NCBI GenBank assembly: GCA_029547745.1
Contig: JAKPOQ010000033.1
Location: 59,129 to 123,128 of the forward strand
Origin: Actinomycetes bacterium
GTDB taxonomy: Bacteria > Actinomycetota > Thermoleophilia > UBA2241
Direction: 5' to 3'
Length of the DNA: 64,000 nucleotides
Made by a program: the position numbers and the translations under genes
The notes under the pieces: model-generated
Seen by the model: the letters and a program-made list of their open reading frames with translations, nothing else
What the model was told of the DNA's origin: nothing
Database searches by the model: none
Shown: in pieces, positions 4,098 through 62,378 of the stretch
How the letters are laid out: each line of letters starts with the position of its first letter
Position numbering within the stretch: position 1 is the first letter of the stretch

Positions 4098-4104
4098 CGG
4101 CGAC

Positions 4105-6275: not shown

Positions 6276-6339
6276 CGATCCTCTCGCGCCACGCGACCTG
6301 TCTTGGGGCATCCGTCGACCGGCGTCTCGCAGGAGCAGT

Positions 6340-6972
6340 CTACGGCAACATGCCCCACGCCCAGCGGAGCACCGCCCCGAAGGTCGCTTCGAAGACGCTC
6401 GGCACGGCGATGAGGACGACGATCAGGACGAGGAAGACCACATCGCCGTACCGGTCGAGACTCATCCACTTGATCCAGAGGCGCCGCGGAAGGAGCCCGC
6501 CGACGATGCGCGAGCCGTCCAGGGGAGGCACCGGCAAGAGGTTCAGCAAGCCGAGGACGAGGTTCAGCGAGAACGTGAGCGCGAACATCTGGGCGAGCAG
6601 CGGCACGGGCCCGTACGTGAGCCAGACGCCGGCGACCGAGGCCAGCGCCAGGCCGGCGTTGGCCGCGGGCCCGGCCGCGCCGACGACCATCATGCCGCGC
6701 TGAGGGTCCCGGAAGCGCCAGGGCGAGACCGGGACCGGGCGCGCCCAGCCCAGGAGGAACTGGCCGCCCGAGCCCAGGAACGACACCACGAGCATGATCG
6801 TCCCCAGCGCGTCCAGATGGCGCAAGGGGTTCCACGACAGCCGTCCCTGCTCACGCGCCGTCCCGTCTCCCATGCGCGCCGCCGCCCAGCCGTGGGCGAG
6901 CTCGTGCAGGACCAGGCTGACGAGAAGGATGGGCAGGACGATGATGAAGGCGACGAGGAGGTCGCCGCTCAT
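6340..6972 (-). CDS. Site-2 protease family (M50) membrane zinc metalloprotease
   Basis: 210 aa multi-TM protein with the HELAHG zinc motif and a downstream LDG motif; ATGA overlap with the upstream gene. Confidence 0.8.
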   Translation of the reverse strand: MSGDLLVAFIIVLPILLVSLVLHELAHGWAAARMGDGTAREQGRLSWNPLRHLDALGTIMLVVSFLGSGGQFLLGWARPVPVSPWRFRDPQRGMMVVGAAGPAANAGLALASVAGVWLTYGPVPLLAQMFALTFSLNLVLGLLNLLPVPPLDGSRIVGGLLPRRLWIKWMSLDRYGDVVFLVLIVVLIAVPSVFEATFGAVLRWAWGMLP

Positions 6973-9593: not shown

Positions 9594-9625
9594 AGCACCG
9601 CAGTATACGGGAGCGCCGGCAAGGT

Positions 9626-11782
9626 TCAGGCGCGCAGCAGCCACGCGAGCTCGTCGCCGAAGGCCTCGTCGACCGCCGCCTTGAGGGGCGCGTTGGTCGG
9701 GCCGGCGAGCTCGCCGTCGGCGTCGAGGATCGTCGTGGCGAGCGCCCGGGCGCGCACGAGGGCGTCGCGGTCGCGAGCCAGGCGGGCGAGCTTGAGGTCG
9801 GGCACGCCCGCCTGCCGCGCGCCCATGACCTGGCCCTCGCCGCGGATCTCGAGGTCGCGGTCGGCGAGCTCGAACCCGTCGTTGGTCTCGAGGAGGGCCT
9901 CGAGCCGGGCTTTGGCCGCGCCGCTCTCGGCGCTCGAGAAAAGCAGGCAGTACGAGCGCGCCGTGCCCCGGCCCACACGGCCGCGAAGCTGATGGAGCTG
10001 GGCGAGGCCGAAGCGCTCGGCGCCCTCGACCAGCATCACCGTCGCGTTGGGCACGTCGATGCCGACCTCGACGAGACTCGTGGCGACGAGGACGTCGATC
10101 GTCCCCGCCTTGAAGTCGGCCATGACCGCCTCGCGCTCGGCCGGCTTGAGCTGACCATGGACCACGCCGACGGTGAAGTCGCGGAACTCCCCCGCCCGCA
10201 GGCGCTCGCTCTCCGCGACCGCGGTCGCGGCCGAGATCGACTCCGACTCGTCGATCGCCGGGCAGACCACGAACGCCTGGCGTCCCTTGCGCAACTGCCG
10301 GCGGACGAACTCGTAGCCCTCGCTGCGGCGCGCCTCGTCCACCACCCGCGTGACCACGGGCTGGCGTCCCGCCGGGGCGCCGGCCACCGTGGTGACGTCG
10401 AGGTCGCCGTACACGGTGAGCGCGAGCGTGCGGGGTATGGGCGTCGCCGTCATGTGCAGGACGTGCGGCGCCCGCCCGGCGTTCTCGGCGCGGCGCACGA
10501 GCTCGTCGCGCTGCTCGACCCCGAACCGGTGCTGCTCGTCGACGACGAGGAGCCCGAGGGCGCGGAACGTCACGTCCTCCTGCAGCAGGGCGTGCGTACC
10601 GACGACGATCGCCGCTTCGCCGCCGGCGATGCGCGCGAGCGCCTCGCGGCGCTCGCGCGCCGTCAGGGCGGCGGTCAGGAGCTCGACGGCTGCGAGATCG
10701 CCCATCAGGCGCCGCGCCGTCTCGGCGTGCTGCCCGGCCAGGGTCTCCGTCGGCGCCATCAGTGCGCCTTGCAACCCCGACTCGACGGCGCGCAGGAGGC
10801 AGAACAGGGCGACGACCGTCTTCCCCGAGCCGACGTCGCCCTGGAGCAGACGGCGCATCGGCGTGTCGCGGCGCAGGTCGACCTCGATCTCGTCGAGCGC
10901 GGCACGCTGGTACGCGGTCAGGGTGAACGGCAGTCCGGCGGCGAAGGCGGCGCTGAGCCGGCCCGGCGCGGCGAACGGGGTCGCGCGCACGCGTTCCTGC
11001 CGGAGACGCTTGTGCAGCAGAAGGCCGACCTGCATGAGCACGAGCTCCTCAAGGACGAGGCGAGCGCGCGCCCGACGGGCGTCGTCCGGCGTGCGGGGCT
11101 GATGGACGGCGAGGGTCGCGTCCGCACGCGTCGGCAGGCCCTCCTTGAGCCGCAGCCAGGCGGGCAGCGGGTCGCCGAGACGGCGCATGTCGTCACGCAC
11201 GCTCTGCATGAGGCTGCGCAGCAGGCGCGCCGACACCTGCTCGCTCGCCGGGTACACGGGCACGAGCCCCTCGGTGTGCACGCTCTCGTCGTCCTCGCCG
11301 AGGATCTCGTGGCTGCGCACAAGGAAGGTCGGCCGCCCGCCCCGGGGACGGAAGGTGCCGCGCACGCTGAGGTACGTCCCCGGTTCGAGCACCCTGGTCA
11401 GATAGCCCTGGTTGAACCACGTGGCCTCGATGGTGCCGGTGTGGTCGCGAACGACGGCGCGCACGACGGTGACCCGTTTGCGCGCCGTCCGCTCGGCGGA
11501 GACCTTCTCGACGAGGCCGCGCACGGTCGCCTCCTCGCCCAGCTTGAGGTCGCGCACGTCCTTACGGTCGCGGTAGTCGGCGTAGCGCCGGGGGAAGTGC
11601 TCGATGAGGTCGCCGACGGTCTCCAGGCCGAAGGCGGCCAGGCGGCGGGCGGTGACCTTGCCGACGCCAGGCAGGCTGTCGAGCGGCCGGCGAAGCCCCG
11701 TGGGGTCGATGCGCAGACGGGTGGGCGGCGGCTCGCCGCCCGGCGTGCCGGCGAAACCCGGAGGGAACGTCGTCCTGCTCAC
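9626..11782 (-). CDS. recG: ATP-dependent DNA helicase RecG
   Basis: 718 aa with wedge domain, Walker A (GDVGSGKT), DEQHRFG helicase motif and the TATPIPRT motif. Confidence 0.93.
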   Translation of the reverse strand: MSRTTFPPGFAGTPGGEPPPTRLRIDPTGLRRPLDSLPGVGKVTARRLAAFGLETVGDLIEHFPRRYADYRDRKDVRDLKLGEEATVRGLVEKVSAERTARKRVTVVRAVVRDHTGTIEATWFNQGYLTRVLEPGTYLSVRGTFRPRGGRPTFLVRSHEILGEDDESVHTEGLVPVYPASEQVSARLLRSLMQSVRDDMRRLGDPLPAWLRLKEGLPTRADATLAVHQPRTPDDARRARARLVLEELVLMQVGLLLHKRLRQERVRATPFAAPGRLSAAFAAGLPFTLTAYQRAALDEIEVDLRRDTPMRRLLQGDVGSGKTVVALFCLLRAVESGLQGALMAPTETLAGQHAETARRLMGDLAAVELLTAALTARERREALARIAGGEAAIVVGTHALLQEDVTFRALGLLVVDEQHRFGVEQRDELVRRAENAGRAPHVLHMTATPIPRTLALTVYGDLDVTTVAGAPAGRQPVVTRVVDEARRSEGYEFVRRQLRKGRQAFVVCPAIDESESISAATAVAESERLRAGEFRDFTVGVVHGQLKPAEREAVMADFKAGTIDVLVATSLVEVGIDVPNATVMLVEGAERFGLAQLHQLRGRVGRGTARSYCLLFSSAESGAAKARLEALLETNDGFELADRDLEIRGEGQVMGARQAGVPDLKLARLARDRDALVRARALATTILDADGELAGPTNAPLKAAVDEAFGDELAWLLRA

Positions 11783-37071: not shown

Positions 37072-37881
37072 TCAGGCGGCCCCGTCGCCTGACGCGCCGG
37101 ACGGTCCGCCGGCAGCGTCCGTCGCGGCGAGCGGCAGCGGGTCGCCCTCCACTTCGGCGGCCATCGCCCGGTCGGCGTCCTCCCCGGCGCGGCGCAGGGC
37201 GTCGACCTCGTCCGTCGAGAGTCCGCGGTGTTCGCCGACCGCAAGGCCCTTGTCCGACAGCGGCCCGTACCGGCGGCGGTGAAGCTCTTCGACCGGGAGG
37301 CCGAGGGCCTCGAACATGCGCCGCACCTGCCGCTTGCGGCCCTCGTGGATCGTCACGTCGAGCAGCGCCGTCTTCGCGCTCTGCTTGCGCAGCTCCACAT
37401 CCGCCGGAGCTGTGACGCCGTCCTCGAGCACGACGCCCTCGCGAAGGCTCGCCAGGGCCCGCCGCGTGACCTTGCCGTGCACGCGCACCCGGTACGTCTT
37501 CGGGACCCCGTAGCGGGGATGCATGAGCCGGTTGGCGAGCACCCCGTCGTTCGTCAGCACGATCAGCCCTGTCGTGTCGACGTCGAGGCGGCCGACGGGG
37601 AACAGCGTCCGCCCGTCCGGCACGAGGTCGACGATCACGCGTTCGGCGTGCGGGTCGCTGCGCGTGCTCGCCACGCCCCGCGGCTTGTTGACGAGCACGT
37701 AGCGGACGTCGCGGAGGGCGACCGGGTCGCCGTTCACGGCGACGGTGTCGCCCTCCGCGACCTTCTGACGCGGGAACGTCACGGTCTCGCCGTTCACGGT
37801 CACGGCGCCGCTGCGCACAAGCTCGTCGCAAGACCGCCGCGACCCCACGCCAGCGCGGGCGAGGAACGTCACGAGGTTCAT
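37072..37881 (-). CDS. rluB: rRNA pseudouridine synthase (RsuA/RluB family)
   Basis: S4 domain plus the RluB catalytic GRLDVDTTGLIVLTND and YRVRVHG motifs; start at MNLVTFL (ATG 37881). Confidence 0.85.
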   Translation of the reverse strand: MNLVTFLARAGVGSRRSCDELVRSGAVTVNGETVTFPRQKVAEGDTVAVNGDPVALRDVRYVLVNKPRGVASTRSDPHAERVIVDLVPDGRTLFPVGRLDVDTTGLIVLTNDGVLANRLMHPRYGVPKTYRVRVHGKVTRRALASLREGVVLEDGVTAPADVELRKQSAKTALLDVTIHEGRKRQVRRMFEALGLPVEELHRRRYGPLSDKGLAVGEHRGLSTDEVDALRRAGEDADRAMAAEVEGDPLPLAATDAAGGPSGASGDGAA

Positions 37882-37892
37882 GGGCTCGCGAC

Positions 37893-38468
37893 TCACGTCC
37901 GCCTCCGCGCGGCGTTGGCCATGAGGCGGGCGCGGATCTCTTCGACCTCGCCCGCCTCGAGGGCGAACTCGTCCAGCGGCGGCAGTTCGTCTCGCGAGCG
38001 CAGCCCGAACAGCTTGAGGAAGCGGTCGGTGGTGCCGTAGAGGATCGGCGCCCCCGGCGTGGCCGCCCGACCACGCTCCTCGATGAGGCCGCGCTCCTCG
38101 AGTCCCGCGAGGGCCCACTCCGACGACACGCCGCGGACCTCGGCGACGTCCGCCCTCGTCACGGGCTCGAGATACGCGACGACGCTCAGCGTCTCAAGCA
38201 ACGCCGGGCTGAGGTCGTCGGGCCGCTCGAGCCCACTGTGGCGGCGGACGGTCTCGGCGCAGTCGTCGGCGACCGCGAACGTGAAGCCGCCGCCGACCTC
38301 CGTCACGACGATGCCGTGGCGACCGGCCGCATACTCGGCGACGAGCCCGGCGAGAGCCGGGTCGACATCCGTCGCGGTCGCCTCACAGGCAGCGGCGAGG
38401 TCCTCCACGGCCAGCGGGCGCGGAGAGATGAACAGCAGGGCTTCGAGTCGTCGTGCGAGATCGTCCAT
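37893..38468 (-). CDS. scpB: Segregation and condensation protein B
   Basis: RLEALLFISPRPLAVEDLA... and two winged-helix repeats. Confidence 0.85.
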   Translation of the reverse strand: MDDLARRLEALLFISPRPLAVEDLAAACEATATDVDPALAGLVAEYAAGRHGIVVTEVGGGFTFAVADDCAETVRRHSGLERPDDLSPALLETLSVVAYLEPVTRADVAEVRGVSSEWALAGLEERGLIEERGRAATPGAPILYGTTDRFLKLFGLRSRDELPPLDEFALEAGEVEEIRARLMANAARRRT

Positions 38469-38539
38469 GGACACGTCGTGTGGTGACCCAGGCATGCTAC
38501 TCCAGCGGCCCGCGGGACGTCATCCCCGCGGCGCGGCGC

Positions 38540-39376
38540 TCAGCCGGCGACCGCGGGCTCCGGGACGCGCGTGACCTCGATCTCGCCGAAGTGCTGCCTC
38601 TGGCGCAGTCGCGCCTCGCCGCCGGCGTGGAGCTCGAGCAGGGCGAAGAACGTCATGGCACGCTCGAGGCGACCCTTGGGGGCGACGGCGCTGAACGTGA
38701 AGCGGCCCTCCCGGCCAAGCACCTCCCGCAAGCGACGCAGCTCGCGGACCAGCGAGACGGCGAGATCGGCCAGATGACTCGTGTCGGGCTGCGGGGGGTC
38801 GCGCAGGAGCGGCGCCAGGGCGCCGGCCAAGACCGCAGGCGCGAACCGCGCCTGCGGTACGGGCCGGCGCAGCAGCGCCGCCGGCGGCGGCGCGTTGCGG
38901 TACAGGCGGCCGGCGTGGACCTCCCAACGCTCGCCCATCATGGCGGCGGCGTTGCGGAACTGCCCGTAGCGCACGAGACGCTCGACGAGCTGCCGCGCCG
39001 CTTCGTCCGGGTCGAGCTCGTCGAGCTCGACCGCGCTCTCGTCCTCCAGCAGAAGGCGTGACTTCATCTCGAGCAGCGCGGCGACGAGCACGACGAACTG
39101 GGAGGTCGCGTCGAGGTCGAACTCGCCGCTGTCGGCGAGGCGTACGACGTACTCGGCGATGATGCCCGAGACGCGCACCTCCCAGATGTCGATCTCGTCG
39201 CGCAGGATAAGAGTGACGAGCAGGTCGAAGGGCCCGTCGAAGACGTCGAGGTCGAGATCGAGGTCGACGCCCGGGGCGGCGGTGCCCGGGGACCCGGGAC
39301 GTTCGGCACCGGACTCGCCGGTCCACCTGCGGCGACCGGCGTCCGGCCGCGGCGCCGTCGCCCCGCCCCGTGCCAT
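38540..39376 (-). CDS. scpA: Segregation and condensation protein A (kleisin)
   Basis: VFDGPFDLLVTLILRDEIDIWEVRVSGIIAEY... is the ScpA N-terminal signature, followed by the C-terminal winged helix. Confidence 0.85.
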   Translation of the reverse strand: MARGGATAPRPDAGRRRWTGESGAERPGSPGTAAPGVDLDLDLDVFDGPFDLLVTLILRDEIDIWEVRVSGIIAEYVVRLADSGEFDLDATSQFVVLVAALLEMKSRLLLEDESAVELDELDPDEAARQLVERLVRYGQFRNAAAMMGERWEVHAGRLYRNAPPPAALLRRPVPQARFAPAVLAGALAPLLRDPPQPDTSHLADLAVSLVRELRRLREVLGREGRFTFSAVAPKGRLERAMTFFALLELHAGGEARLRQRQHFGEIEVTRVPEPAVAG

Positions 39377-39384: not shown

Positions 39385-40557
39385 CTACTCCTTCGGCTGG
39401 TGGATGAAGGACGGGATCTCGAAGTCGCCCGTGGGCGGCTCGCCGAACCGCGTGGACGGCTCGCGTCGGACGCGGTCACCAGGCTCTTCGCCGCCGCGAG
39501 ACGGGCCACCGGCGACCTGCTCGCCGAACCCGGTCGCCACGACCGTCACGGCGATCTTGCCCTCGAGGCGCTCGTCGAGCACGGCGCCGAAGATGATGTT
39601 GGCGTCGTCGTGCGCCGCCGCGGCGATCGTCCCGGCCGTCTCGTTGACCTCGAAGAGGGTGAGGTCGCCGCCGCCCGTGATGTTGAGCAGGATGCCACGC
39701 GCACCCTCGATCGACGTCTCGAGCAACGGCGAGTGAATGGCCATCTCGGCGGCGACCTGGGCGCGGTTCTCGCCGCTCCCGACGCCCACGCCGAGCAGCG
39801 CCGTGCCGGCGTCCTTGACGATCGTCCGCACGTCGGCGAAGTCGAGGTTGATGAGCCCCGGCACGGTGATGAGGTCCGAGATCCCCTGCACGCCTTGGCG
39901 GAGGATGTCGTCGGCGTGACGGAACGCCTCGACGACGCTCGTCGTGCGCTCCACCACCTCGACGAGACGATCGTTGGGGATGGCGATGACCGTGTCGGCC
40001 ACGCCGCGCAGCTTGCCGATACCCTCCTCGGCCTGTCGCATGCGGCGGTTGCCCTCGAAGTGGAACGGTTTGGTCACGATGGCGATGGTGACGGCGCCCA
40101 ACTCACGCGCCACGGCGGCGATCACCGGCGCCCCGCCGGTGCCCGTGCCGCCGCCTTCGCCGGCGGTCACGAACACCAGATCGGCGCCGCGCAACGCCGC
40201 CTTGAGCTGGTCGCGTGACGCTTCCATGGCCTCGCGTCCCACCTCCGGGTCGGCGCCGCCGCCGAGACCGTGGGTGATCTCCTGGCCGATGTGGATCTTG
40301 ACGTCGGCGTCGCAGACGTCGAGCTGCTGGACGTCAGTGTTGACGGCGATGAACTCGACACCCTTGACGCCGGAGTCGACCATGCGGTTGACGGCGTTCG
40401 TCCCCGCCCCGCCGACGCCGACGACCTTGATGGTCGTCACGTACGGCCGGCCCTTCACCGGCGCCTCGAGGCCCGCATAATCGCCGGGAGGCGGACCGCC
40501 GTCCGTGCGCCGGAAGAGCTCGCTCAACCCATCCTTCATGCTAGGACGATCGACCAT
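39385..40557 (-). CDS. ftsZ: Cell division GTPase FtsZ with an approximately 40 aa N-terminal extension
   Basis: IKVVGVGGAGTNAVNRM, the tubulin signature GEGGGTGTGGAP, NTDVQQL, the T7-loop region and the conserved C-terminal peptide DFEIPSFI; GGGAGGTG Shine-Dalgarno lies inside the 3' end of the upstream parA-like gene and the reading frames overlap by 17 nt. Confidence 0.92.
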   Translation of the reverse strand: MVDRPSMKDGLSELFRRTDGGPPPGDYAGLEAPVKGRPYVTTIKVVGVGGAGTNAVNRMVDSGVKGVEFIAVNTDVQQLDVCDADVKIHIGQEITHGLGGGADPEVGREAMEASRDQLKAALRGADLVFVTAGEGGGTGTGGAPVIAAVARELGAVTIAIVTKPFHFEGNRRMRQAEEGIGKLRGVADTVIAIPNDRLVEVVERTTSVVEAFRHADDILRQGVQGISDLITVPGLINLDFADVRTIVKDAGTALLGVGVGSGENRAQVAAEMAIHSPLLETSIEGARGILLNITGGGDLTLFEVNETAGTIAAAAHDDANIIFGAVLDERLEGKIAVTVVATGFGEQVAGGPSRGGEEPGDRVRREPSTRFGEPPTGDFEIPSFIHQPKE

Positions 40558-41299
40558 TCAGCACCTCCCGCGCAAGCGCACGGTACGCCTCGGCTCCCCT
40601 CCCCTGCGGGTCGTACTTGAGCACCGAACTCCCGATGACCGGCGCCTCGGCGAACTTGATGGTCTTCCGGACCACGGTGTCGAACACAAGCTTACCGAAA
40701 TTCTCGCGCAGGACCTCGATGGATTCCTGGCCGTGCTTGGTGCGGGCGTCGTACAGCGTCGGCAGGATGCCCTTGATCTTGACGTCCGGGTTGAGGTTCT
40801 CGCGGATCATGTCGAGCGTCCGTTCGAGCTGCAGGAGGCCACGCAGCGAGAGGTACTCGCACTGCACCGGGACGATGACGCCCTCGGCGGCGGTGAGCGC
40901 GTTGATGGTCAGCAGGCCGAGCGACGGCGGCGTGTCGATGAGGATGTAGTCGTACTGGTCGCGCACCTCGGCGAGGGCGCGCTGAAGGGCGCGCTCGCGG
41001 CCGATCATCGACGACAGCGCCATCTCGGCGCCGGCCAGGTCGATGGTCGACGCGGCGACGTCGAACTCGCGCTCGTAGACGACCTCGGTGATCGGCACGC
41101 GGTGGACGAGGACGTCGTACATGCTCTTCCCGAGGTCCTCGGTGTCGATGCCCTGACTCATCGTCAGGTTGCCCTGGGGGTCCATGTCGACGGCGAGTAC
41201 GGTAAGACCCCGCTCGCGCAGGGCGGCGCCGAGGTTCACCGTCGAAGTCGTCTTCGCCACTCCCCCCTTCTGGTTGGCGAAGGCCAGGACATGCGCCAT
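40541..41299 (-). CDS. parA: Orphan ParA/Soj-type ATPase (PldP/Rv1708-like); no adjacent parB
   Basis: AFANQKGGVAKTTSTVNLGAAL deviant Walker A and Soj-like sequence throughout (IDTPPSLGLLTINAL, YDARTK, KYDPQGRGAEAYRALA); GAGGAGCGAG Shine-Dalgarno; stop at 40541 lies inside ftsZ. Confidence 0.88.
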   Translation of the reverse strand: MAHVLAFANQKGGVAKTTSTVNLGAALRERGLTVLAVDMDPQGNLTMSQGIDTEDLGKSMYDVLVHRVPITEVVYEREFDVAASTIDLAGAEMALSSMIGRERALQRALAEVRDQYDYILIDTPPSLGLLTINALTAAEGVIVPVQCEYLSLRGLLQLERTLDMIRENLNPDVKIKGILPTLYDARTKHGQESIEVLRENFGKLVFDTVVRKTIKFAEAPVIGSSVLKYDPQGRGAEAYRALAREVLNGRSS

Positions 41300-41432
41300 G
41301 GGGACTCGCTCCTCGTTCGACACCACGTCACGAGGCTGTTCGTGGCGCAGGCTGGAATCCCTGCACGGCGAGACCCTGCTGTCTCTGCAGGGCGCCGCCG
41401 TGCCTGGATCTCAGGATCGGCCCGCGCGAGGC

Positions 41433-41849
41433 TCAGGCCGGCTTCTTGGAGCCGCTCGCCGCCTCCTGCGTGACGTCGGCCTCGTCCCCGGGGTCGGTCG
41501 CTTCGTCGAGCGCCTCCTCGTCGGCCGCCTCGATCTCGTCGACGGCGTCGATCTCGTCGTCCGCCGCGAACTCCTCCTCGTACTCCTCTTCCTCTTCCTC
41601 TTCCTCGCTCACGATCTGCGAGATCGCGCGCTTGAGGAAGCGGACGCGAGTGCCCTTGGAGACGTCCATCTCGACCCAGTCGTCGCCGATGCGGCGGATC
41701 ACGCCGAACATGCCGCCGATGGTGACGACCTCGTCGCCCTTCTTGAGCATCGCCACCATCTCTTGATGCGCCTGGCGCTGCTTGCGCTGCGGGCGCACGG
41801 CGAGGAAGTAGAAGATCCCGAAGAAGATCAGGATATAGATGATGAGCAT
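41433..41849 (-). CDS. yajC: Preprotein translocase subunit YajC with an acidic Glu/Asp-rich C-terminal tail
   Basis: MLIIYILIFFGIFYFLAVRPQRKQRQAHQEMVAMLKKGDEVVTIGGMFG is the YajC core, followed by a SEEEEEEEEYEEEF acidic extension; alternative GTG start at 41864 sits 5 nt after a GGAGAG. Confidence 0.85.
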   Translation of the reverse strand: MLIIYILIFFGIFYFLAVRPQRKQRQAHQEMVAMLKKGDEVVTIGGMFGVIRRIGDDWVEMDVSKGTRVRFLKRAISQIVSEEEEEEEEYEEEFAADDEIDAVDEIEAADEEALDEATDPGDEADVTQEAASGSKKPA

Positions 41850-41866
41850 CCCGGTGCCAGCCACGT

Positions 41867-49636: not shown

Positions 49637-51712
49637 TCAGTTCTTCTGCGCCTCCTCGCGCTCCTTCTTCGCCTCGGCGACGACCTTCGGTGTGAGGTGC
49701 GCGGGCACCTCTTCGTAACGCAGGAACTCCATCGTGTAGTCGCCGCGCCCGCCCGTCATCGACGTGAGGTCGGGCGCGTAGCTGAGCATCTCAGCCAGCG
49801 GCACCTCGGCGGTGATGACGTTCGTGTGACCACGCGGCGTCGTGCCGAGCACGCGGCCGCGGCGTGAGTTGAGGTCGCCGATGATGTCGCCCACGCTCTC
49901 TTCGGGGACCGTGATCTCGACGTTCATGATGGGCTCGAGGAGGACCGGCTGGGCCTTCTCGACCGCGGCCTTGAAGCCGACGGAGCCGGCGATCTGGAAG
50001 GCCATGTCGCTCGAGTCGACGGGGTGATGCTTGCCGTCGTAGAGCTTGACCTCGACGTCGACCACGGGGTAGCCGGCGAGGATGCCCTCGGTCATCGCCG
50101 CCCGCACGCCCTTCTCGACGGCCGGGATGAAGTTGCGCGGGATGGCGCCGCCGACGATCTTGTCGACGAACTCGAACCCTTCGCCGCGCGGCCGCGGCGA
50201 CACCTCGAGCCAGGTGTCGGCGAACTGGCCGCGCCCGCCGGTCTGCTTCTTGTGCTTGCCCTCGGCCTTGGCCGTACCCTTGATGGTCTCGCGGTACGGC
50301 ACCCGCGGCGGTTTGAGCTCGACTTCGGTGCCGAAGCGCCGCTTCATGCGCTCGACCGTCACTTCGACATGGACCTGACTCATGCCACCGATGATCATCT
50401 CGCCCGTCTGCGGGTCGCGATGGACGTCGAGCATGGGGTCCTCTTCGGCGAGGCGTTTGAGCGCCGCCAGGACCTTGTCTTCCTCGCCCTTGCTCTTCGC
50501 CGTCACGGCGAAGCTCATGAGCGGGGCCGGGAACGCGATCGCCGGGAAGCTCACCACGTTGCCCTCGGCGCACAGGGTATCGCCGGTGACGACGTCCTTG
50601 AGTTTGGCGATGGCGCCGATGTCGCCGGCGACGAGCTTGTCGACCGGCTTCATCTCTTTGCCCATCGGCTTGAGCAACTGCCCGAGGCGCTCCTTATGAC
50701 CGTCGCGTGCGACCACAAGCTGGCTGTCGCTGGCGACCGTCCCCTGGAAGACGCGAAAGACGTTCACGTGTCCGCTGAACGGATCGGCGAGAGTCTTGAA
50801 GACGAACGCCGCGACAGGCCTCGCCGGGTCGCAGGCCAACGTCACCTCGGCGCCGTCCGGGCCGACGGCGACCGGCGGAGCCACGTCGGCCGGAGACGGC
50901 GTCAGGGCGAGCAGACCGAACAGGAGGTCGACCCCGATCTGGCGCGTCGCCGAGCCGCAGGCCACCGGGAAGAGCTGCCCGCCGGCGACGGCCGCGGCGA
51001 AGGCGCGGGCGAGCTCGTCGGCGGTGATCTCCTCCTCCATCAGGTACTTCTCGGCGAGGTCGTCGTCGGTGCTGGCGATGGCATCGATCAGCTTGTCGCG
51101 CGCCGCCGAGGCCTCGTCGGCCAGCTCTGCCGGGATGTCCGCGACCTGTGCCTTGCCGCTTTCGTACACGAAGGCCTTCATGGTCAGGAGGTCGACGACC
51201 CCCTTCAGATCGTGCTCCCTGCCGATCGGCAGGTGTGCGGCCACGACCTGGGGGCCGAAAGCCTCCTGCAAGGCACTGACGGCGGCTTCGAGATCGGCGC
51301 GTTCGCGATCGAGCATGTTGCAGAAGAACATCCGCGCCAGGCCGCGGTCGGCGGCGCGCTTCCAGAGGCGCTCCGTCTGGACCTCGACCCCAAGCACCGA
51401 GTTGACCACCATGACGGCCGTCTCGACCACGTGCAACGCGGCGATCGTGTCGGCGAGGAAGCTGGGGTCGCCAGGCGTGTCGACGAGGTCGAAGGTGAGT
51501 CCGGCGCGGTCGACGTGGGCGAGGGTAGCGGAGAGACTGAGCTGGCGCTTCTTCTCGTCCTCATCCCAGTCTGACACCGTCGTGCCTTCGGCAACGCTGC
51601 CCAGGCGCGTGATGACACCGGCCTCGTACAACAGCGCCTCGAAGAGCGACGTCTTGCCGGTACCGCGATGTCCCACGAGGGCGACGTTCCTGACCTTGCC
51701 TGGGTCGTTCAT
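49637..51712 (-). CDS. Elongation factor G paralogue (EF-G2 / FusA2-like translational GTPase)
   Basis: 691 aa with a G domain (VGHRGTGKTSLFEAL, DTPGD, NMLD) and EF-G domains II to V; GAGGAG Shine-Dalgarno 9 nt upstream. Confidence 0.88.
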   Translation of the reverse strand: MNDPGKVRNVALVGHRGTGKTSLFEALLYEAGVITRLGSVAEGTTVSDWDEDEKKRQLSLSATLAHVDRAGLTFDLVDTPGDPSFLADTIAALHVVETAVMVVNSVLGVEVQTERLWKRAADRGLARMFFCNMLDRERADLEAAVSALQEAFGPQVVAAHLPIGREHDLKGVVDLLTMKAFVYESGKAQVADIPAELADEASAARDKLIDAIASTDDDLAEKYLMEEEITADELARAFAAAVAGGQLFPVACGSATRQIGVDLLFGLLALTPSPADVAPPVAVGPDGAEVTLACDPARPVAAFVFKTLADPFSGHVNVFRVFQGTVASDSQLVVARDGHKERLGQLLKPMGKEMKPVDKLVAGDIGAIAKLKDVVTGDTLCAEGNVVSFPAIAFPAPLMSFAVTAKSKGEEDKVLAALKRLAEEDPMLDVHRDPQTGEMIIGGMSQVHVEVTVERMKRRFGTEVELKPPRVPYRETIKGTAKAEGKHKKQTGGRGQFADTWLEVSPRPRGEGFEFVDKIVGGAIPRNFIPAVEKGVRAAMTEGILAGYPVVDVEVKLYDGKHHPVDSSDMAFQIAGSVGFKAAVEKAQPVLLEPIMNVEITVPEESVGDIIGDLNSRRGRVLGTTPRGHTNVITAEVPLAEMLSYAPDLTSMTGGRGDYTMEFLRYEEVPAHLTPKVVAEAKKEREEAQKN

Positions 51713-59264: not shown

Positions 59265-62200
59265 TCAACTGCGGCCTCCTCCGGACCGGCCGCCGGTGAG
59301 GACGGCGGTCCCGCCCGTCCGCGACGCCGTCGTGATGCGCACTTTCCGTCGCTGGCCGACGAAGCCGCGCCCGCCCTCGACGATGACCATGTAGCCGTCC
59401 ACGTATCCCACCGCGTCGCGGGGACTGTACGTCAGCGAGTACTCGAGCTCGATCTCGACCTCCTGGCCCTCGCGGACCGGGACCAACTGCGCCTCGACCT
59501 GGGCCACCGGACCCTCGGCCAGCATACGGAACGCGTCCACCGGCACGGTCGACGACCCCTCGACGAAGATCCGCCGGCCGGTCTCCTTCTCGAGCGCCCT
59601 GAGCCTCCCGCCGGCCGTCAGGCGCTCGGCGACGCCGGTGTTCACCTCGACCAGGCATGCCTTCGCCCCAGAGCGCTTCGACTGCGCCCGCAGACGGCGT
59701 TCGACGCTCAGGGCGACGGTCTCTTCCGACAGTGTCCGCGCCTTGCCCTGGCAGGTCTGACAGGTGCGGGTGAGAATACCGCGCGCGCCGTCGGTCGTGT
59801 TCTGCCGGGTCATCTCGACGAGGCCGAGGGGCGAGAGCTCGACGACGTAGGTCTTCGTGCGGTCGGTGTCGAGTTCCGCCTCGAGCGTCGCGAGGACGGT
59901 CTCGCGGTTCTTGATACGCGCCATGTCGATGAAGTCGATGATGATGATCCCGCCGATGTCCCGCAGGCGCAGTTGACGCACGACCTCGCGCGCGGCCTCG
60001 AGGTTGGTGCGCAGGATCGTGTCCTCGAGGCCGCGCCCGCGTGTGAAGCGGCCGCTGTTGACGTCGATCACCGTGAGCGCTTCGGCATGGTCGATCACGA
60101 TGTTGCCCCCGCTGGGCAACGGGACGCGGCGTTCGAGGGCGCGCGAGATCTGCTCTTCGATGCCGTAGGCGTCGAAGAGCGGCTCCGCGCCCGTGTGCAG
60201 GCGGACCTTGGGGACCAGTTCGGGGGCGACCTTCTCGAGGTAGGCCGTGATCGTCTTCAGCCGCTTCTCGTCGTCGACGATGAGGCTCTCGACCGACTCG
60301 TTGAAGAGGTCGCGCGCCACCTCGAGGGCGATGTCGACCTCCTGATGGATGAGACCGGGGATCGGCGCCGTCTCGGCCTTCTTCTTCAGCCGCGACCAGA
60401 GCCGCGAGAGGTAACGCACGTCGCGGCGGATCTCGTCGAGACCCTTGCCCTCCGCCGCCGTGCGCACGATCAGACCGGCGTTCTTGACGCGGAGCTGTTT
60501 GCAGAGCTCGCGCAGACGCTCGCGCTCGCCTTGCCCGAGACGACGCGAGACGCCGACCCCGCTGCCTCCCGGCACGTAGACGACGTACCGCCCAGGCAGA
60601 GAGAAGTGCATCGTGAGCCGCGCGCCCTTACTGCCCATCGGGTCCTTCATGACCTGGACGACCACGTCCTGGCCGGGCTTGAGCACGTCGGTGATGCGAC
60701 GGCCGCGACGGTCGCCCTCCCCGGTACGCACCTCGTCGACGTAGAGGAAGCCGTTCTTGTCGATGCCGAAGTCGACGAAGGCCGCGTCGATGCCGGGAAG
60801 CACGCTCTCGACCTTGCCGCGATAGATGTCGCCAAGGTAGGAACGCCTCTCCGGGCGTTCGAAGTAGATCTCCGCCAGACGCCCGTCCTCGACCAGGGCG
60901 ACGCGCAGCTCGTGGGGGTCCTCCGTCACGAGGATGAGCTTGCGCTTGGGCAGCTCGACGCTGACCTCGGGGCGCCGGCCCGTCGTCAGAGCGGGCCCTT
61001 CGATCGCGCTCGCGTCGGCGCCGGTCAAGCCCTCGGAGCCCGCGATCGCCTTCGGCCGACGACGGTCGCGCCGGCGGCTCTTCGTCGCGGTTCGCTCCTC
61101 GCCCGCCGGCGCACGCTCGGGCCCTGCGCCGGGCATGGCCGCCGCCCCGGTTCCGGGCTCGGCCTCGGCGCCGGCTCCGCGCTCGGTCTCAGAGACGGCT
61201 CCGGACTCGGCCGCGGAGACGGCTGCCGTCGGCGCCGCCGGGGCGGTCGCCGCCAGGAGCGTCGGCTCTGCGGCGACAGGAGCCGCCACGGCCTCCGCGC
61301 GCTTCGTGCGGCGACCGCCCCGCCGACCACGCCGCTTGCGTTCATCCTCGCGCACGGCCGGCGCAGCCTCCGCGCCCCGGGCGCCTTGACCTTCCGCCGC
61401 CCGCGCCTCGGCCGACCGCGGCTCCTCAGACTCAGTCGATGCGATCACCATCTCGGCCGCCGTGGGACCCTTGAGCGACGTCGGCTGCGCGGCCAAAGTC
61501 GGCCGTTCATCGCCTGCCGGCTCGCCGGCGGCAGCCGAACCCTCGGCGTGCCCCGGCTCCCCGGGAGCGGCTGGTCCCTCGGGCGCACCGGTCTTGACAC
61601 TCGGCTCCGACCCGGATTCGCCGGCGCCCTGCGCGGCAGCGCGGCGCGCTTCGCGGGCGCGCACGCGCCGCCCGCCGCGCGACCCGCGCCGCCGCCGCTT
61701 GGGCGCCGCCTCGTCACCCTCGGGCGTGCCCTCCGCGGCATCACCCTCAGGAGCGCCTTCCACCTGCCCGGCCGCAGGTTCGACCCGTCGGCGACCCGAT
61801 GCACCGCGCTTGGCACGTGGCCTCGGCGCCGCTTCTGCAGCCACCCTCGGCGTCTGCTCACCTGCCGCCCCGCCAGCCGCCGGCGTCTGTTCCCCTGCCG
61901 GCGCAGTCACAGCTGACGCCTGCTCCTCTGCCGGCGTGCCGGCGCCCGGCGCAGACTCGGCCGCAGGCGCGGAGCCGCCCGCCGCCGGTGCCTCGGGCGC
62001 TCCCGCCGGCTCGGCGGCGTCGCCTGTGGCAGCACCCTTGCTGCGATGGCGCCCGGCTCCCCCACGCGTCCCACGCCGCCGGCGGCTGCCGGCGCCCGCA
62101 GCGGAGCTCTCCGACGACGCCTCCGCAGCGGTCGCTGACGCGCTCCCGGAGGGCGCCTCGCCGGCCGAGGCGGACATCGTCGAGGGCGCCTCGCCGGCCC

Positions 62201-62378
62201 CCTCCCCGGACCCGCTTGCAGCGGCGCCGTCGGGCGACGGCGGAGCGGCGGCCTCGGTGGACGACGCCGGAGCAGCGGCGCCGTCGGGCGACGCCGGGGT
62301 GGCGCCGTCGGCGCCCTCCCCGGTCTTCTGCACCTCGATCTCGCCACGCACGACCTTCCGTCTTCTCCGTTCGGTCAC
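59265..62378 (-). CDS. rne: Ribonuclease E/G family endoribonuclease with an approximately 470 aa low-complexity N-terminal region
   Basis: The C-terminal half carries the S1 domain (YRGKVESVLPGIDAAFVDFG), the DNase-I-like catalytic domain (LIVDDEKR..., VIDVNSG, GGIIIIDFIDM) and a Zn-link CQTCQG; the N-terminal half is an Ala/Glu/Pro/Gly/Arg-rich repetitive region. Confidence 0.9.
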   Translation of the reverse strand: MTERRRRKVVRGEIEVQKTGEGADGATPASPDGAAAPASSTEAAAPPSPDGAAASGSGEGAGEAPSTMSASAGEAPSGSASATAAEASSESSAAGAGSRRRRGTRGGAGRHRSKGAATGDAAEPAGAPEAPAAGGSAPAAESAPGAGTPAEEQASAVTAPAGEQTPAAGGAAGEQTPRVAAEAAPRPRAKRGASGRRRVEPAAGQVEGAPEGDAAEGTPEGDEAAPKRRRRGSRGGRRVRAREARRAAAQGAGESGSEPSVKTGAPEGPAAPGEPGHAEGSAAAGEPAGDERPTLAAQPTSLKGPTAAEMVIASTESEEPRSAEARAAEGQGARGAEAAPAVREDERKRRGRRGGRRTKRAEAVAAPVAAEPTLLAATAPAAPTAAVSAAESGAVSETERGAGAEAEPGTGAAAMPGAGPERAPAGEERTATKSRRRDRRRPKAIAGSEGLTGADASAIEGPALTTGRRPEVSVELPKRKLILVTEDPHELRVALVEDGRLAEIYFERPERRSYLGDIYRGKVESVLPGIDAAFVDFGIDKNGFLYVDEVRTGEGDRRGRRITDVLKPGQDVVVQVMKDPMGSKGARLTMHFSLPGRYVVYVPGGSGVGVSRRLGQGERERLRELCKQLRVKNAGLIVRTAAEGKGLDEIRRDVRYLSRLWSRLKKKAETAPIPGLIHQEVDIALEVARDLFNESVESLIVDDEKRLKTITAYLEKVAPELVPKVRLHTGAEPLFDAYGIEEQISRALERRVPLPSGGNIVIDHAEALTVIDVNSGRFTRGRGLEDTILRTNLEAAREVVRQLRLRDIGGIIIIDFIDMARIKNRETVLATLEAELDTDRTKTYVVELSPLGLVEMTRQNTTDGARGILTRTCQTCQGKARTLSEETVALSVERRLRAQSKRSGAKACLVEVNTGVAERLTAGGRLRALEKETGRRIFVEGSSTVPVDAFRMLAEGPVAQVEAQLVPVREGQEVEIELEYSLTYSPRDAVGYVDGYMVIVEGGRGFVGQRRKVRITTASRTGGTAVLTGGRSGGGRS

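What the first reader, a model, noticed from the sequence alone, without database searches (positions are those of the whole stretch)
39385..41299. Orphan ParA/Soj ATPase translationally overlapping a bona fide ftsZ, placed in the pldP-scpA-scpB block rather than a dcw cluster
FtsZ here is canonical: it has the GGGTGTG tubulin signature and the C-terminal DFEIPSFI peptide that binds SepF/FtsA-type partners. Its ATG at 40557 and GGGAGGTG Shine-Dalgarno lie inside the last codons of a Soj-like ParA gene with a KGGVAKTT deviant Walker A, giving a 17-nt overlap. No parB follows. In actinobacteria an orphan ParA (PldP in Corynebacterium, Rv1708 in M. tuberculosis) conventionally sits directly upstream of scpA-scpB-rluB-cmk-der; here ftsZ is inserted between that ParA and scpA. 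SepF and DivIVA are 35 kb away and have no ftsZ next to them. Tight coupling of a ParA-type positioning ATPase with the Z-ring protein suggests a dedicated MipZ/PldP-like division-site or nucleoid-coordination module. FtsZ also carries an unusual, roughly 40 aa N-terminal extension.
Basis: partly seen in the sequence, partly recalled or inferred. Interest (0 to 1): 0.72.

Follow-up and report, generated by a model that had tools for sequence, protein, structure and literature searches.

The report
Second FtsZ coupled to a ParA ATPase
An uncultured soil actinobacterial lineage (Thermoleophilia) carries, besides its ordinary cell-division gene ftsZ, a second intact FtsZ with a unique conserved N-terminal tag, and this copy is always translated together with a ParA-type positioning ATPase inside the chromosome-condensin operon, which suggests that FtsZ itself has become the ATPase's partner.

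Summary
A 252-aa Soj-like ParA (40541..41299, minus strand) overlaps by 17 nt a 390-aa FtsZ (39385..40557). ScpA, scpB and rluB follow, and no parB is present. The interpretation needs one major correction: this is not the organism's relocated ftsZ. In relatives, six assemblies and one single contig also carry a canonical 362-aa ftsZ at the end of a dcw cluster (ftsW-murG-murC-ftsQ-ftsZ). The window copy, here called FtsZx, is a monophyletic paralogue that evolves 2-3 times faster. Its GTPase core and C-terminal IPSF peptide are intact. It also has a nearly invariant N-terminal peptide (M.DRPSMKDGLSELFRRT) on a variable linker, found in no other protein family. The parA-ftsZx junction, with GGGAGGTG and the ATG inside the parA 3' end, is conserved in 32 of 32 related loci. 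Both genes are under purifying selection. The best reading, which is inferred, is that FtsZx occupies the ParB slot and its basic, amphipathic N-terminal tag docks on and activates the ParA. This would place a specialised FtsZ relative to the nucleoid and condensin. The main rival is that the tag is a membrane anchor. I could not test by sequence whether the ParA is an orthologue of PldP/Rv1708. I found no published description of this gene pair.

The parts
41371..41393 (-). Hairpin (GCCCTGCAG-N-CTGCAGGGTCT) just after yajC. It probably terminates or insulates the upstream queA-tgt-yajC unit.
   Evidence: The stem sequence is conserved in most relatives in the alignment of upstream regions. 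The simple terminator scan did not call it because it has no T-tract.
41297..41365 (-). Conserved non-coding block upstream of parA (TGCAGGGATTC ... GAAC ... GACGTGG ... AGGAG-N9-ATG). It is a probable promoter or operator plus the parA ribosome-binding site.
   Evidence: Columns conserved at 85% or more across 21 loci. No sigma-70 consensus match on this strand, so the function is inferred.
40541..41299 (-). parA: a 252-aa Soj-type ParA/MinD ATPase with no adjacent parB. It has the deviant Walker A KGGVAKTT (41246..41269), DTPPSLG (40916..40936), and a conserved Arg in YDARTKHG (40730..40753).
   Evidence: Pfam AAA_31 8.7e-59 and CbiA 1.6e-25. Best solved structures: 8RAY ParA 9e-63, 4PFS 8e-61, T. 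thermophilus Soj 1e-53. Identity to relatives is 74-92%. dN/dS is 0.11-0.22.
40562..40569 (-). Shine-Dalgarno GGGAGGTG for ftsZx, embedded in parA codons (..A R E V L..).
   Evidence: It is followed by CTGA or CTCA and then the ATG. It is exact or changed at one or two bases (GGGAGGTC, GCGAGGTG, TCGAGGTG) in all 32 related junctions.
40541..40557 (-). 17-nt overlap between the parA 3' end and the ftsZx 5' end (translational coupling).
   Evidence: Gene calls of 252 aa and 390 aa overlapping by 17 nt appear on 9 independent contigs.
39385..40557 (-). ftsZx: a 390-aa FtsZ paralogue.
   Evidence: TIGR00065 411 bits against a cut-off of 295. M. tuberculosis FtsZ 1RLU matches at 8.6e-120. FtsZx is monophyletic in 100 of 100 bootstraps. 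dN/dS is 0.15-0.39.
40504..40557 (-). N-terminal tag, residues 1-18 (MVDRPSMKDGLSELFRRT). It is a basic, amphipathic short linear motif.
   Evidence: M1, R4, M7, D9, G10, L11, E13, L14, F15, R16 and R17 are invariant, and P5, S6, K8 and T18 are at least 90% conserved, in 30 sequences of 74-100% identity. Third-codon positions vary while the amino acids stay fixed. muH is 0.61 and net charge +1. Outside FtsZx it matches nothing among 1.84 billion representative proteins.
40444..40503 (-). Variable Pro/Gly/acidic linker (residues 19-33) followed by the conserved VKGRP (residues 34-38), joining the tag to the globular domain.
   Evidence: Length and sequence vary between relatives. pLDDT is about 30 in the AF2 model.
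39526..40443 (-). FtsZ GTPase and C-terminal domains (residues 39-344), with T1 GGAGTN, T3 GLGGGADP, T4 GGGTGTG and T7 NLDFADV.
   Evidence: Pfam Tubulin 1e-46 and FtsZ_C 4.6e-33. Only 10 fixed differences from dcw-linked FtsZ.
39403..39426 (-). C-terminal conserved peptide DFEIPSFI, the site where FtsZ binds membrane-anchoring partners (SepF in actinobacteria).
   Evidence: I381, P382 and F384 are invariant. The dcw copy ends in the analogous DVLDIPSFLKD. Binding to SepF is inferred from what is known about FtsZ C-terminal peptides.
38540..39376 (-). scpA (condensin kleisin). Its start lies 8 nt after the ftsZx stop.
   Evidence: Pfam SMC_ScpA 3.9e-17. Gene calls.
37893..38495 (-). scpB.
   Evidence: Pfam SMC_ScpB 4.2e-47; TIGR00281 115 bits against a cut-off of 89.
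37072..37896 (-). rluB-type pseudouridine synthase. It overlaps scpB by 4 nt and is the last tightly packed gene of the unit.
   Evidence: Pfam S4 and PseudoU_synth_2. A 274-aa gene call.
4983..5513 (-). sepF (176 aa) in a detached dcw tail (yggS 5533..6234, divIVA 4105..4845). SepF is the likely membrane anchor for the C-terminal peptides of both FtsZ copies.
   Evidence: Translation, coordinates. Neighbours YggS and DivIVA identified by Pfam. SepF itself was identified from its sequence and position, not by a profile search.

Best explanation
This is a conserved two-gene module, parA-ftsZx, at the head of the scpA-scpB-rluB operon in an uncultured clade of Thermoleophilia.

Shown: FtsZx is a second, catalytically intact FtsZ. 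In relatives the housekeeping ftsZ stays at the end of the dcw cluster elsewhere in the genome.

Inferred mechanism:
1. One transcript starts at the conserved block upstream of parA.
2. Ribosomes finishing parA reinitiate at the embedded GGGAGGTG/ATG, so ParA and FtsZx are made together.
3. ParA-ATP dimers coat the nucleoid non-specifically, as Soj-type ParAs do.
4. FtsZx sits in the genomic slot normally held by parB. It carries what ParA/MinD partner proteins typically carry: a short, conserved, basic N-terminal peptide on a flexible linker. This tag binds the ParA dimer and stimulates its ATPase.
5. FtsZx filaments display many tags, so they behave as a ParA cargo. They are driven to a defined place on or between nucleoids, as PomXYZ clusters, carboxysomes and ParB-parS complexes are.
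6. Through its C-terminal IPSF peptide and its near-normal polymer interfaces, FtsZx then recruits SepF and co-assembles with, or seeds, the housekeeping FtsZ ring. Division-site choice is thereby tied to chromosome segregation and condensation by ScpAB.
For: Paralogy:
- Two ftsZ types occur in the same contig or assembly in six cases.
- The second type lies in murF-mraY-murD-ftsW-murG-murC-ftsQ-ftsZ.
- FtsZx is monophyletic in 100 of 100 bootstraps and never sister to the co-resident copy.
- Between the same genome pairs, FtsZx is 76-85% identical and the dcw copy 92-95%.
- FtsZx is 68.7% identical to both groups of dcw FtsZ and 61.6% to M. tuberculosis FtsZ.

Intact function:
- TIGR00065 scores above its cut-off.
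- Only 10 fixed substitutions separate it from dcw FtsZ.
- dN/dS is 0.15-0.39.

Coupling:
- The Shine-Dalgarno plus ATG inside parA is conserved in 32 of 32 loci.
- Synteny holds in 34 species-level genomes and in more than 120 metagenomic protein clusters.
- Gene gaps in the unit are -17, +8, +44 and -4 nt.

Tag:
- Eleven invariant residues in positions 1-17, including R4, R16 and R17, with K8 at least 90% conserved, are followed by a variable linker.
- The tag is found only in FtsZx.
- The segment is predicted helical, at low confidence.

Principle from the literature:
- The T. thermophilus Spo0J N-terminus, verified as MSRKPSGLGRGLEALLPK, loosely resembles MVDRPSMKDGLSELFRRT.

Functional link between the scpA-linked ParA and division:
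- PldP forms septal foci and its loss gives minicells (PMC3989709).
- Rv1708/MSMEG_3743 complement an E. coli minDE mutant and bind ParB and ScpA (PMC10482377).
Against: - No interaction was tested.
- The tag has a net charge of only +1 and contains three acidic residues, so it is less basic than classic activating peptides.
- Its amphipathicity exceeds only 93.5% of shuffles and would equally suit a membrane helix.
- The similarity to the ParB N-terminus is weak. The basic residue is one position out of register, and a PDB search with the peptide found nothing.
- The AF2 model was poor (mean pLDDT 50).
- A second ftsZ was not located in the window organism's own assemblies.
- ParA orthology to PldP is unproven.
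- The direction of regulation, positive placement or inhibition, cannot be deduced from sequence.
Confidence: 0.45

Rival explanations
1. Membrane-tether reading. The N-terminal amphipathic helix anchors FtsZx filaments directly to the membrane, as in Odinarchaeota FtsZ1. ParA is co-expressed only as a classical MipZ- or MinD-style regulator that acts on the FtsZx globular domain, or not on FtsZx at all.
For: M7, L11, L14 and F15 fall on one helical face, with muH 0.61. A helix is predicted at residues 8-20. There is precedent: an N-terminal amphipathic helix of one FtsZ paralogue binds liposomes while the other paralogue uses SepF, and Mycoplasma and chloroplast FtsZ show similar behaviour (PMC12583498).
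Against: The net charge is +1, with D3, D9 and E13 present, against +3 to +4 for the MinD and FtsA membrane helices compared. Residue-by-residue invariance is stricter than in the GTPase core, which is typical of protein-protein motifs rather than lipid-binding helices. FtsZx keeps a SepF-type C-terminal peptide, so it already has an anchor. This reading does not explain the strictly conserved translational coupling to ParA.
Confidence: 0.2
2. Inhibitor reading. ParA is a MipZ- or nucleoid-occlusion-like negative regulator. Nucleoid-bound ParA-ATP sequesters or depolymerises FtsZx, through the tag or the core, so that FtsZx assembles only in DNA-free zones. The components are the same as in the best explanation, but the sign is opposite.
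For: Pfam MipZ matches ParA at 40.8 bits, above its cut-off of 20.7. Overexpression of the mycobacterial scpA-linked ParA causes filamentation, and it complements a minDE mutant (PMC10482377). Loss of PldP gives minicells.
Against: The MipZ match is far weaker than the generic AAA_31 match at 198.9 bits. MipZ depends on ParB, and no parB or parS is present here. Sequence alone cannot separate positive from negative control, so this is a variant of the main explanation rather than a contradiction of it.
Confidence: 0.2
3. This is the organism's only, bona fide ftsZ, relocated from the dcw cluster to sit behind an orphan ParA.
For: The window holds yggS-sepF-divIVA without an ftsZ. The protein passes the FtsZ equivalog threshold. 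A dcw-linked ftsZ was not recovered from the three NCBI assemblies that carry this exact protein.
Against: Six related assemblies, one of them on a single contig, carry both a parA-linked and an ftsQ-linked ftsZ. The closest relative (88% identity, L001) has one (L045). In 16 loci of the clade's own ftsZ1 type, ftsQ-ftsZ1 is followed by secDF; the 17th contig ends right after ftsZ1. This fits the window, where yajC has lost its usual secDF neighbours. FtsZx is the faster-evolving copy and lies further from M. tuberculosis FtsZ.
Confidence: 0.04
4. Neutral duplicate. FtsZx is a redundant copy that happened to land between parA and scpA. The adjacency and overlap carry no functional meaning.
For: The core domains are almost unchanged, with 10 fixed differences. 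Duplicated ftsZ genes of unclear role are known in other bacteria.
Against: The pair is retained with an identical junction across lineages down to 69% identity. Both genes are under purifying selection. A new, invariant N-terminal motif was gained. The divergence is at least as old as the split between the sampled Thermoleophilia dcw FtsZ groups.
Confidence: 0.06

Closest known systems
PldP (Cg1610) / Rv1708 / MSMEG_3743: the orphan ParA-like division protein of Corynebacteriales encoded next to scpA
   Same: It is a Soj-like deviant Walker A ATPase with no adjacent parB, encoded directly upstream of scpA-scpB. The family is linked to septum placement and binds ScpA and ParB (PMC3989709, PMC10482377).
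   Different: Here an ftsZ paralogue is inserted between parA and scpA and is translationally coupled to parA. The window ParA is 252 aa and lacks the long N-terminal region of Rv1708, whose helix IDLSAAEIQLVN lies at residues 152-163 against residues 86-97 here. Sequence orthology was not tested. The nearest solved mycobacterial relative (4PFS) is encoded at an Rv3213c-like locus.
ParA-ParB (Soj-Spo0J) partition pairs and other ParA/MinD ATPase plus activating-partner pairs (MinD-MinE, McdA-McdB, PomZ-PomX)
   Same: The gene order is ATPase followed by partner. The partner carries a short, conserved, charged N-terminal peptide on a flexible linker attached to a cargo domain (PMC7993993; bioRxiv 10.1101/2022.06.09.495121).
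   Different: The putative partner is FtsZ itself, a GTP-dependent polymer, not a DNA-, membrane- or organelle-binding adaptor. The tag is only weakly basic (net +1). No activity has been measured.
MipZ (Caulobacter) and PomXYZ (Myxococcus): ParA-like ATPases that place the Z ring
   Same: A nucleoid- or ParB-associated ParA-family ATPase controls where FtsZ assembles.
   Different: Those systems act on the single housekeeping FtsZ, directly (MipZ) or via PomX/PomY. Their genes are not fused to ftsZ in an operon, and the FtsZ carries no dedicated tag. Here a dedicated FtsZ paralogue appears to have evolved for the ATPase.
Dual FtsZ systems: archaeal FtsZ1/FtsZ2 including Odinarchaeota, and plastid FtsZ1/FtsZ2
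   Same: Two FtsZ paralogues share an intact core but differ at the termini. One paralogue bears an N-terminal amphipathic helix (PMC12583498).
   Different: This is a bacterial, lineage-specific duplication. Both copies keep a SepF-type C-terminal peptide. The extra copy is genetically tied to a ParA and to condensin genes.

Membership tests
FtsZ (NCBIfam TIGR00065 equivalog) | Whole-protein score above the curated equivalog cut-off, with Tubulin/FtsZ GTPase and FtsZ_C domains | tested here: met
   411 bits against a cut-off of 295. Pfam Tubulin 1e-46 and FtsZ_C 4.6e-33.
FtsZ (NCBIfam TIGR00065 equivalog) | GTP-binding signature GGGTGTG and the catalytic T7 loop N-x-D-x-x-D | tested here: met
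   GGGTGTG at residues 135-141 and NLDFADV at 237-243. Both are invariant in 30 orthologues.
FtsZ (NCBIfam TIGR00065 equivalog) | Conserved C-terminal peptide for membrane-anchor proteins, after a disordered linker | tested here: met
   DFEIPSFI at residues 378-385, with I381, P382 and F384 invariant. Partner binding itself is not testable here.
Housekeeping (dcw-cluster) ftsZ | Located downstream of ftsQ (or ftsA) at the end of the mur/fts cluster, and the slowest-evolving copy in the genome | tested here: not met
   It is flanked by parA and scpA. In relatives a different copy follows ftsQ. FtsZx is 76-85% identical between genome pairs in which the dcw copy is 92-95% identical.
ParA/Soj-type ParA/MinD ATPase | Deviant Walker A KGGxxK[ST] with the signature lysine, and a Walker B-like hydrophobic-D-x-P-P motif | tested here: met
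   KGGVAKTT at residues 11-18 and ILIDTPPSLG at 119-128. AAA_31 8.7e-59. Soj and ParA structures match at 1e-53 to 9e-63.
ParA/Soj-type ParA/MinD ATPase | Basic residue for non-specific DNA binding (equivalent to B. subtilis Soj R189) | tested here: inconclusive
   R186 in YDARTKHG aligns with the Arg in FDSRA of 8RAY and YDSRT of 4PFS. The equivalence to Soj R189 rests on my recollection of the Soj sequence, and DNA binding was not tested.
Chromosomal or plasmid partition ParA (NCBIfam NF041546 ParA_partition and related equivalogs) | Score above the equivalog cut-off, with an adjacent parB and parS | tested here: not met
   108.6 bits against a cut-off of 180. The downstream genes are ftsZ and scpA. 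There is no parS-like site within 3 mismatches in 64 kb.
MinD | Score above the minD_bact cut-off, with a C-terminal membrane-targeting helix | tested here: not met
   48.9 bits against a cut-off of 212.9. The protein ends ...YRALAREVLNGRSS, with no amphipathic tail.
MipZ | A specific MipZ-family match that is better than generic ParA models, with dependence on ParB | tested here: not met
   The Pfam MipZ match of 40.8 bits covers only half of the profile (positions 1-136 of 262), against 198.9 bits for AAA_31. ParB dependence is not testable here.
PldP / Rv1708 family (scpA-linked orphan ParA of actinobacteria) | No adjacent parB, and encoded immediately upstream of scpA-scpB | tested here: met
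   Met for the position upstream of scpA-scpB-rluB...cmk, apart from the inserted ftsZx. The mycobacterial arrangement is taken from PMC10482377.
PldP / Rv1708 family (scpA-linked orphan ParA of actinobacteria) | Sequence orthology to Cg1610/Rv1708 rather than to other actinobacterial ParA paralogues | tested here: inconclusive
   No Rv1708 or Cg1610 sequence was available. The best mycobacterial match, 4PFS (8e-61, shares KGGVAKTT), is encoded beside whiB, rhlE, gpm and entC-like genes, which I recognise from memory as an Rv3213c-type locus, not beside scpA.
PldP / Rv1708 family (scpA-linked orphan ParA of actinobacteria) | Septal localisation, and division-site defects on deletion | not testable with these tools
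   Requires genetics and imaging in a cultured host.
ParA/MinD ATPase-activating partner proteins (ParB, MinE, PomX, McdB type) | Encoded next to the ATPase, with a short, conserved, positively charged N-terminal peptide on a disordered linker ahead of the cargo domain | tested here: inconclusive
   Adjacency and the peptide-plus-linker architecture are met. The peptide has four basic and three acidic residues, net +1, so the positive-charge criterion is met only weakly.
ParA/MinD ATPase-activating partner proteins (ParB, MinE, PomX, McdB type) | The peptide binds the ATP-bound dimer and stimulates ATP hydrolysis | not testable with these tools
Biochemistry is needed.

The most novel reading that the evidence does not exclude
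In this clade, FtsZ itself has become the direct cargo and ATPase-activating partner of a ParA. It would have replaced ParB in a ParA-ParB-type gene pair by acquiring an N-terminal 'luggage tag'. The result would be a minimal two-protein system in which a tubulin-family polymer positions itself on the nucleoid, wired genetically to condensin (ScpAB). It would also act as a natural 'Rosetta stone' showing that the scpA-linked orphan ParAs of actinobacteria (PldP/Rv1708), whose target is unknown, act directly on FtsZ.
Probability: 0.35. Interest if true: 0.85.

Novelty: new variant of a known kind. Interest (0 to 1): 0.62.

Why it matters
Actinobacteria lack both the Min and Noc systems. How they choose the division site, and what the conserved scpA-linked orphan ParA (PldP/Rv1708) acts on, remain open questions (PMC3989709, PMC10482377).

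A lineage in which that gene position has captured a dedicated FtsZ paralogue offers strong genomic-association evidence for a direct ParA-FtsZ link. The paralogue has obligatory translational coupling and a new terminal motif. The system also provides simple, testable reagents: a 252-aa ATPase, a 390-aa FtsZ and an 18-residue peptide.

The finding adds a bacterial case of dual FtsZ paralogues that differ at their termini, alongside the archaeal and plastid cases. It also corrects the default annotation: both genes are currently labelled only 'cell division protein FtsZ' in public records.

Tried and rejected
2. AF2 of FtsZx from a 30-sequence alignment gave mean pLDDT 50 and about 30 for residues 1-41. 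I used it only to note a predicted helix at 8-20 and ran no fold search.
3. A PDB sequence search with residues 1-40 gave no hits at E up to 10.
4. HMMER of residues 1-38 against 1.84 billion representatives returned six hits, all truncated or frameshifted FtsZx. The tag therefore has no detectable relatives.
5. I tried to find the dcw-type ftsZ in the assemblies that carry the window's exact FtsZx (GCA_035424825.1, GCA_035374325.1, GCA_035419265.1, ERZ773284 and others). I looked up the contigs of five FtsZ1 clusters (P0129, P0124, P0132, P0140, P0174) and one further member of the P0124 cluster (P0240). All came from other samples, so the second copy is shown only in relatives.
6. I tested whether the M. 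smegmatis structure 4PFS is the scpA-linked ParA. It is not: its locus looks like the Rv3213c locus. PldP orthology by sequence therefore stays open.
7. The sigma-70 and terminator scans found nothing useful on the coding strand. No parS-like site was found.
8. I considered a recent duplication of the co-resident ftsZ and rejected it. FtsZx was never sister to group A in 100 bootstraps and is equidistant (68.7%) from both dcw groups.
9. I considered M7 as the true start codon and rejected it. M1 is present in all relatives and has a strong Shine-Dalgarno sequence at 6-nt spacing, while nothing of that kind precedes M7.
10. Literature searches for a Thermoleophilia or actinobacterial FtsZ paralogue linked to ParA found nothing relevant.


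Full report
**What is in the window**

The window has 71.7% G+C, and all convincing genes lie on the minus strand. Read 5' to 3' on that strand, the region runs as follows:
- ruvC-ruvA-ruvB-queH-queA-tgt-yajC (yajC at 41433..41864)
- parA (40541..41299)
- ftsZ (39385..40557)
- scpA (38540..39376)
- scpB (37893..38495)
- rluB (37072..37896)
- chorismate mutase, an aminotransferase, DAHP synthase, prephenate dehydrogenase, then cmk and further genes

ParA is a 252-aa Soj-like ATPase. It hits Pfam AAA_31 at 8.7e-59 and carries KGGVAKTT at residues 11-18. The FtsZ scores 411 bits on the NCBIfam ftsZ equivalog, whose cut-off is 295. It has GGGTGTG, the T7 loop NLDFADV, and a C-terminal DFEIPSFI.

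The parA stop (TAG, 40541-40543) lies 17 nt inside ftsZ, whose ATG is at 40555-40557. That ATG is preceded by GGGAGGTG at 40562-40569. Gene callers applied to nine independent public contigs that carry the identical FtsZ chose the same two starts. They give gaps of -17, +8, +44 and -4 nt along parA-ftsZ-scpA-scpB-rluB.

No parB follows, and no parS-like site exists in the 64 kb. YggS, SepF and DivIVA lie 35 kb away. Upstream of them is a DHH-CBS-polyA-polymerase fusion gene rather than ftsZ.

**Is it the cell's ftsZ? No.**

A scan of one genome per bacterial species returned 80 loci.

Thirty-four of them, all Thermoleophilia MAGs at 69-88% identity, match the full 390 residues. They share the window's synteny: ruvCAB-queH-(queA)-tgt-(yajC)-parA-ftsZ-scpA-scpB-rluB.

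The other 46 match only residues 39-386 or less, at 60-70% identity. Wherever enough flank is available, they sit behind ftsW-murG-murC-ftsQ.

The two types co-occur:
- Contig CAVPVX010000002.1 holds both, L009 and L044, about 180 kb apart.
- Five further assemblies hold one of each: L001/L045, L020/L035, L025/L073, L031/L064 and L033/L047.
- Pfam annotation of L044 gives murF-mraY-murD-ftsW-murG-murC-ftsQ-ftsZ(362 aa)-secD-secF.
- Look-ups of more of these proteins gave the same ftsQ-ftsZ-secDF context.

So the clade has a canonical dcw-linked ftsZ, which I call FtsZ1. The window gene, FtsZx, is an additional paralogue.

I could not locate FtsZ1 in the assemblies that contain the window's own FtsZx. 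For the window organism itself, the second copy is therefore inferred from relatives, including one at 88% identity.

**How the paralogue differs**

Phylogeny and distances:
- In a neighbour-joining tree on 292 ungapped core columns, rooted with M. tuberculosis FtsZ, FtsZx is monophyletic (100/100). The co-resident FtsZ1 group is also monophyletic (100/100).
- The two are never sisters (0/100). All dcw copies group together in 63/100.
- FtsZx is equally distant (68.7%) from both dcw groups, which are 81.7% identical to each other. It is 61.6% identical to the M. tuberculosis protein, against 68.9% for FtsZ1.
- Between the same genome pairs, FtsZx is 76-85% identical where FtsZ1 is 92-95% identical.
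- The duplication is therefore old or was followed by acceleration. It is not a recent copy.

Selection and core:
- dN/dS is 0.15-0.39 for FtsZx and 0.11-0.22 for ParA.
- Only ten positions are fixed differently from the dcw FtsZ proteins, all conservative. Examples are YVTT for YLAV at strand S1 and GLGGGA for GLGAGA in T3.

The real innovation is at the N-terminus:
- Residues M1, R4, M7, D9, G10, L11, E13, L14, F15, R16 and R17 are invariant, and P5, S6, K8 and T18 nearly so, in 30 sequences of 74-100% identity.
- A linker of variable length and sequence follows, then the conserved VKGRPYVTTIKVVG.
- Third-codon positions vary under these invariant residues, for example GGG, GGA, GGC and GGT for G10. 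The peptide is therefore translated and under selection.
- A HMMER search with residues 1-38 against 1.84 billion representative proteins found only six truncated FtsZx fragments. A PDB search found nothing.

**Coupling to ParA**

In all 32 related loci that include the junction, the ftsZx ATG is preceded by GGGAGGTG(C)TGA, or a variant changed at one or two bases, inside the parA reading frame. The parA stop falls 14 to more than 26 nt downstream of the ATG. ParA is 74-92% identical across the clade.

Upstream of parA there is a hairpin after yajC (41371..41393) and a 69-nt conserved non-coding block (41297..41365). This suggests the operon has its own regulated promoter, although the simple sigma-70 scan found nothing there.

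**Mechanism (inferred)**

The literature states a general rule. Partner proteins of ParA/MinD ATPases (ParB, MinE, ParG, PomX, McdB, TlpT) are otherwise unrelated. Each is linked to its ATPase by a short, conserved, positively charged N-terminal peptide grafted onto a cargo domain. Peptides of about 20 residues can suffice for activation (PMC7993993; bioRxiv 10.1101/2022.06.09.495121).

FtsZx fits that architecture. It occupies the parB position, is co-translated with the ATPase, and bears an invariant N-terminal peptide with four basic residues on a flexible linker. The peptide loosely resembles the activating N-terminus of T. thermophilus Spo0J, whose sequence I verified:
- Spo0J: MSRKPSGLGRGLEALLPK
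- FtsZx: MVDRPS-MKDGLSELFRRT

I treat that resemblance as a lead only.

My preferred account is that nucleoid-bound ParA-ATP binds the tag and is activated by it. FtsZx polymers are thereby positioned relative to the chromosome. Through the IPSF C-terminal peptide and a nearly unchanged polymer core, FtsZx then connects to SepF and to the housekeeping FtsZ.

The operon partners fit this account. The mycobacterial scpA-linked ParA (Rv1708/MSMEG_3743) binds ScpA and ParB and affects septation. PldP forms septal foci, and its deletion gives minicells.

**Rivals**

- The tag is amphipathic, with M7, L11, L14 and F15 on one face and muH 0.61, a value reached by 6.5% of shuffles. It could instead be a membrane anchor, as shown for Odinarchaeota FtsZ1. 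Against this are its net charge of +1, its three acidic residues, its residue-level invariance, and the retained SepF-type peptide.
- Whether ParA places or inhibits FtsZx cannot be told from sequence.
- A neutral duplicate is unlikely given the conservation.

**Limits on the PldP label**

The position upstream of scpA-scpB-rluB...cmk matches PldP/Rv1708, but I could not obtain those sequences.

The best mycobacterial match with a solved structure, 4PFS (8e-61), is encoded next to whiB, rhlE, gpm and entC-like genes. I recognise that from memory as the Rv3213c neighbourhood. It is not next to scpA.

The window ParA also lacks the N-terminal region of about 60 aa implied for Rv1708. Orthology therefore remains open.

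**Novelty**

Searches of the paper library found no description of a Thermoleophilia or actinobacterial FtsZ paralogue coupled to a ParA. Public records label both copies simply as FtsZ.

I rate this a new variant of known kinds: a ParA/MinD ATPase with its partner, and dual FtsZ paralogues. It is of real interest because it offers a direct and easily testable link between an orphan actinobacterial ParA and FtsZ.

Noticed in passing
window 2226..9644 (-): The tail of a dcw cluster (yggS 5533..6234, sepF 4983..5513, divIVA 4105..4845, lspA 3187..3660, rluD 2226..3233) is detached from any ftsZ. It is preceded by an 891-aa DHH-DHHA1-CBS-PolyA_pol (CCA-adding-type) fusion protein (6969..9644) and by recG.
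   Followed up: partly
window 41433..41864 (yajC) against L044:9980-13818 and 15 other loci: In the FtsZx-bearing clade, the dcw ftsZ is followed directly by secD-secF. Meanwhile yajC, which normally precedes secDF, is followed by parA-ftsZx. In other Thermoleophilia (L037, L040, L058, L071, L074), ftsZ is followed by yggS...divIVA. This looks like a three-breakpoint rearrangement (yajC|secD, ftsZ|yggS, ?|parA) that accompanied or followed the ftsZ duplication.
   Followed up: partly
window 41297..41393 (-): A hairpin lies after yajC, followed by a 69-nt non-coding block conserved across 21 relatives (TGCAGGGATTC...GAAC...GACGTGG...). It does not match a sigma-70 consensus. It may be the promoter of an alternative sigma factor or an operator for the parA-ftsZx-scpAB unit.
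   Followed up: partly
L110:5001-5807 (M. smegmatis, P0287): The protein crystallised as 'cobyrinic acid a,c-diamide synthase' (PDB 4PFS, 5IHP, 5IF9) is a ParA paralogue. It is encoded beside whiB, a DEAD-box helicase, and His_Phos and chorismate-binding genes, which I recognise from memory as the Rv3213c-type locus. It shares the unusual KGGVAKTT Walker A with the window ParA.
   Followed up: yes
P0020 (JGI contig of 1.9 kb): A 543-aa 'FtsZ' with an NAD(P)-binding PF13460 segment between the Tubulin and FtsZ_C domains scored at or near the top for both the FtsZx and FtsZ1 queries. It is probably a chimeric or misassembled contig rather than a real fusion.
   Followed up: no
window 41433..41864 (-): YajC (143 aa) carries a long, strongly acidic C-terminal tail (EEEEEEEYEEEFAADDEIDAVDEIEAADEE...). 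The Pfam YajC match does not cover this tail.
   Followed up: no
window 49637..51712 (-): A full-length EF-G-type GTPase (691 aa) sits between dinB and pdxS/pdxT, away from any rpsL-rpsG-fusA-tuf context. It may be a second EF-G paralogue.
   Followed up: no
window 59265..62378 (-): An RNase E/G homologue of 1037 aa has a long N-terminal region and a C-terminal TRAM domain.
   Followed up: no
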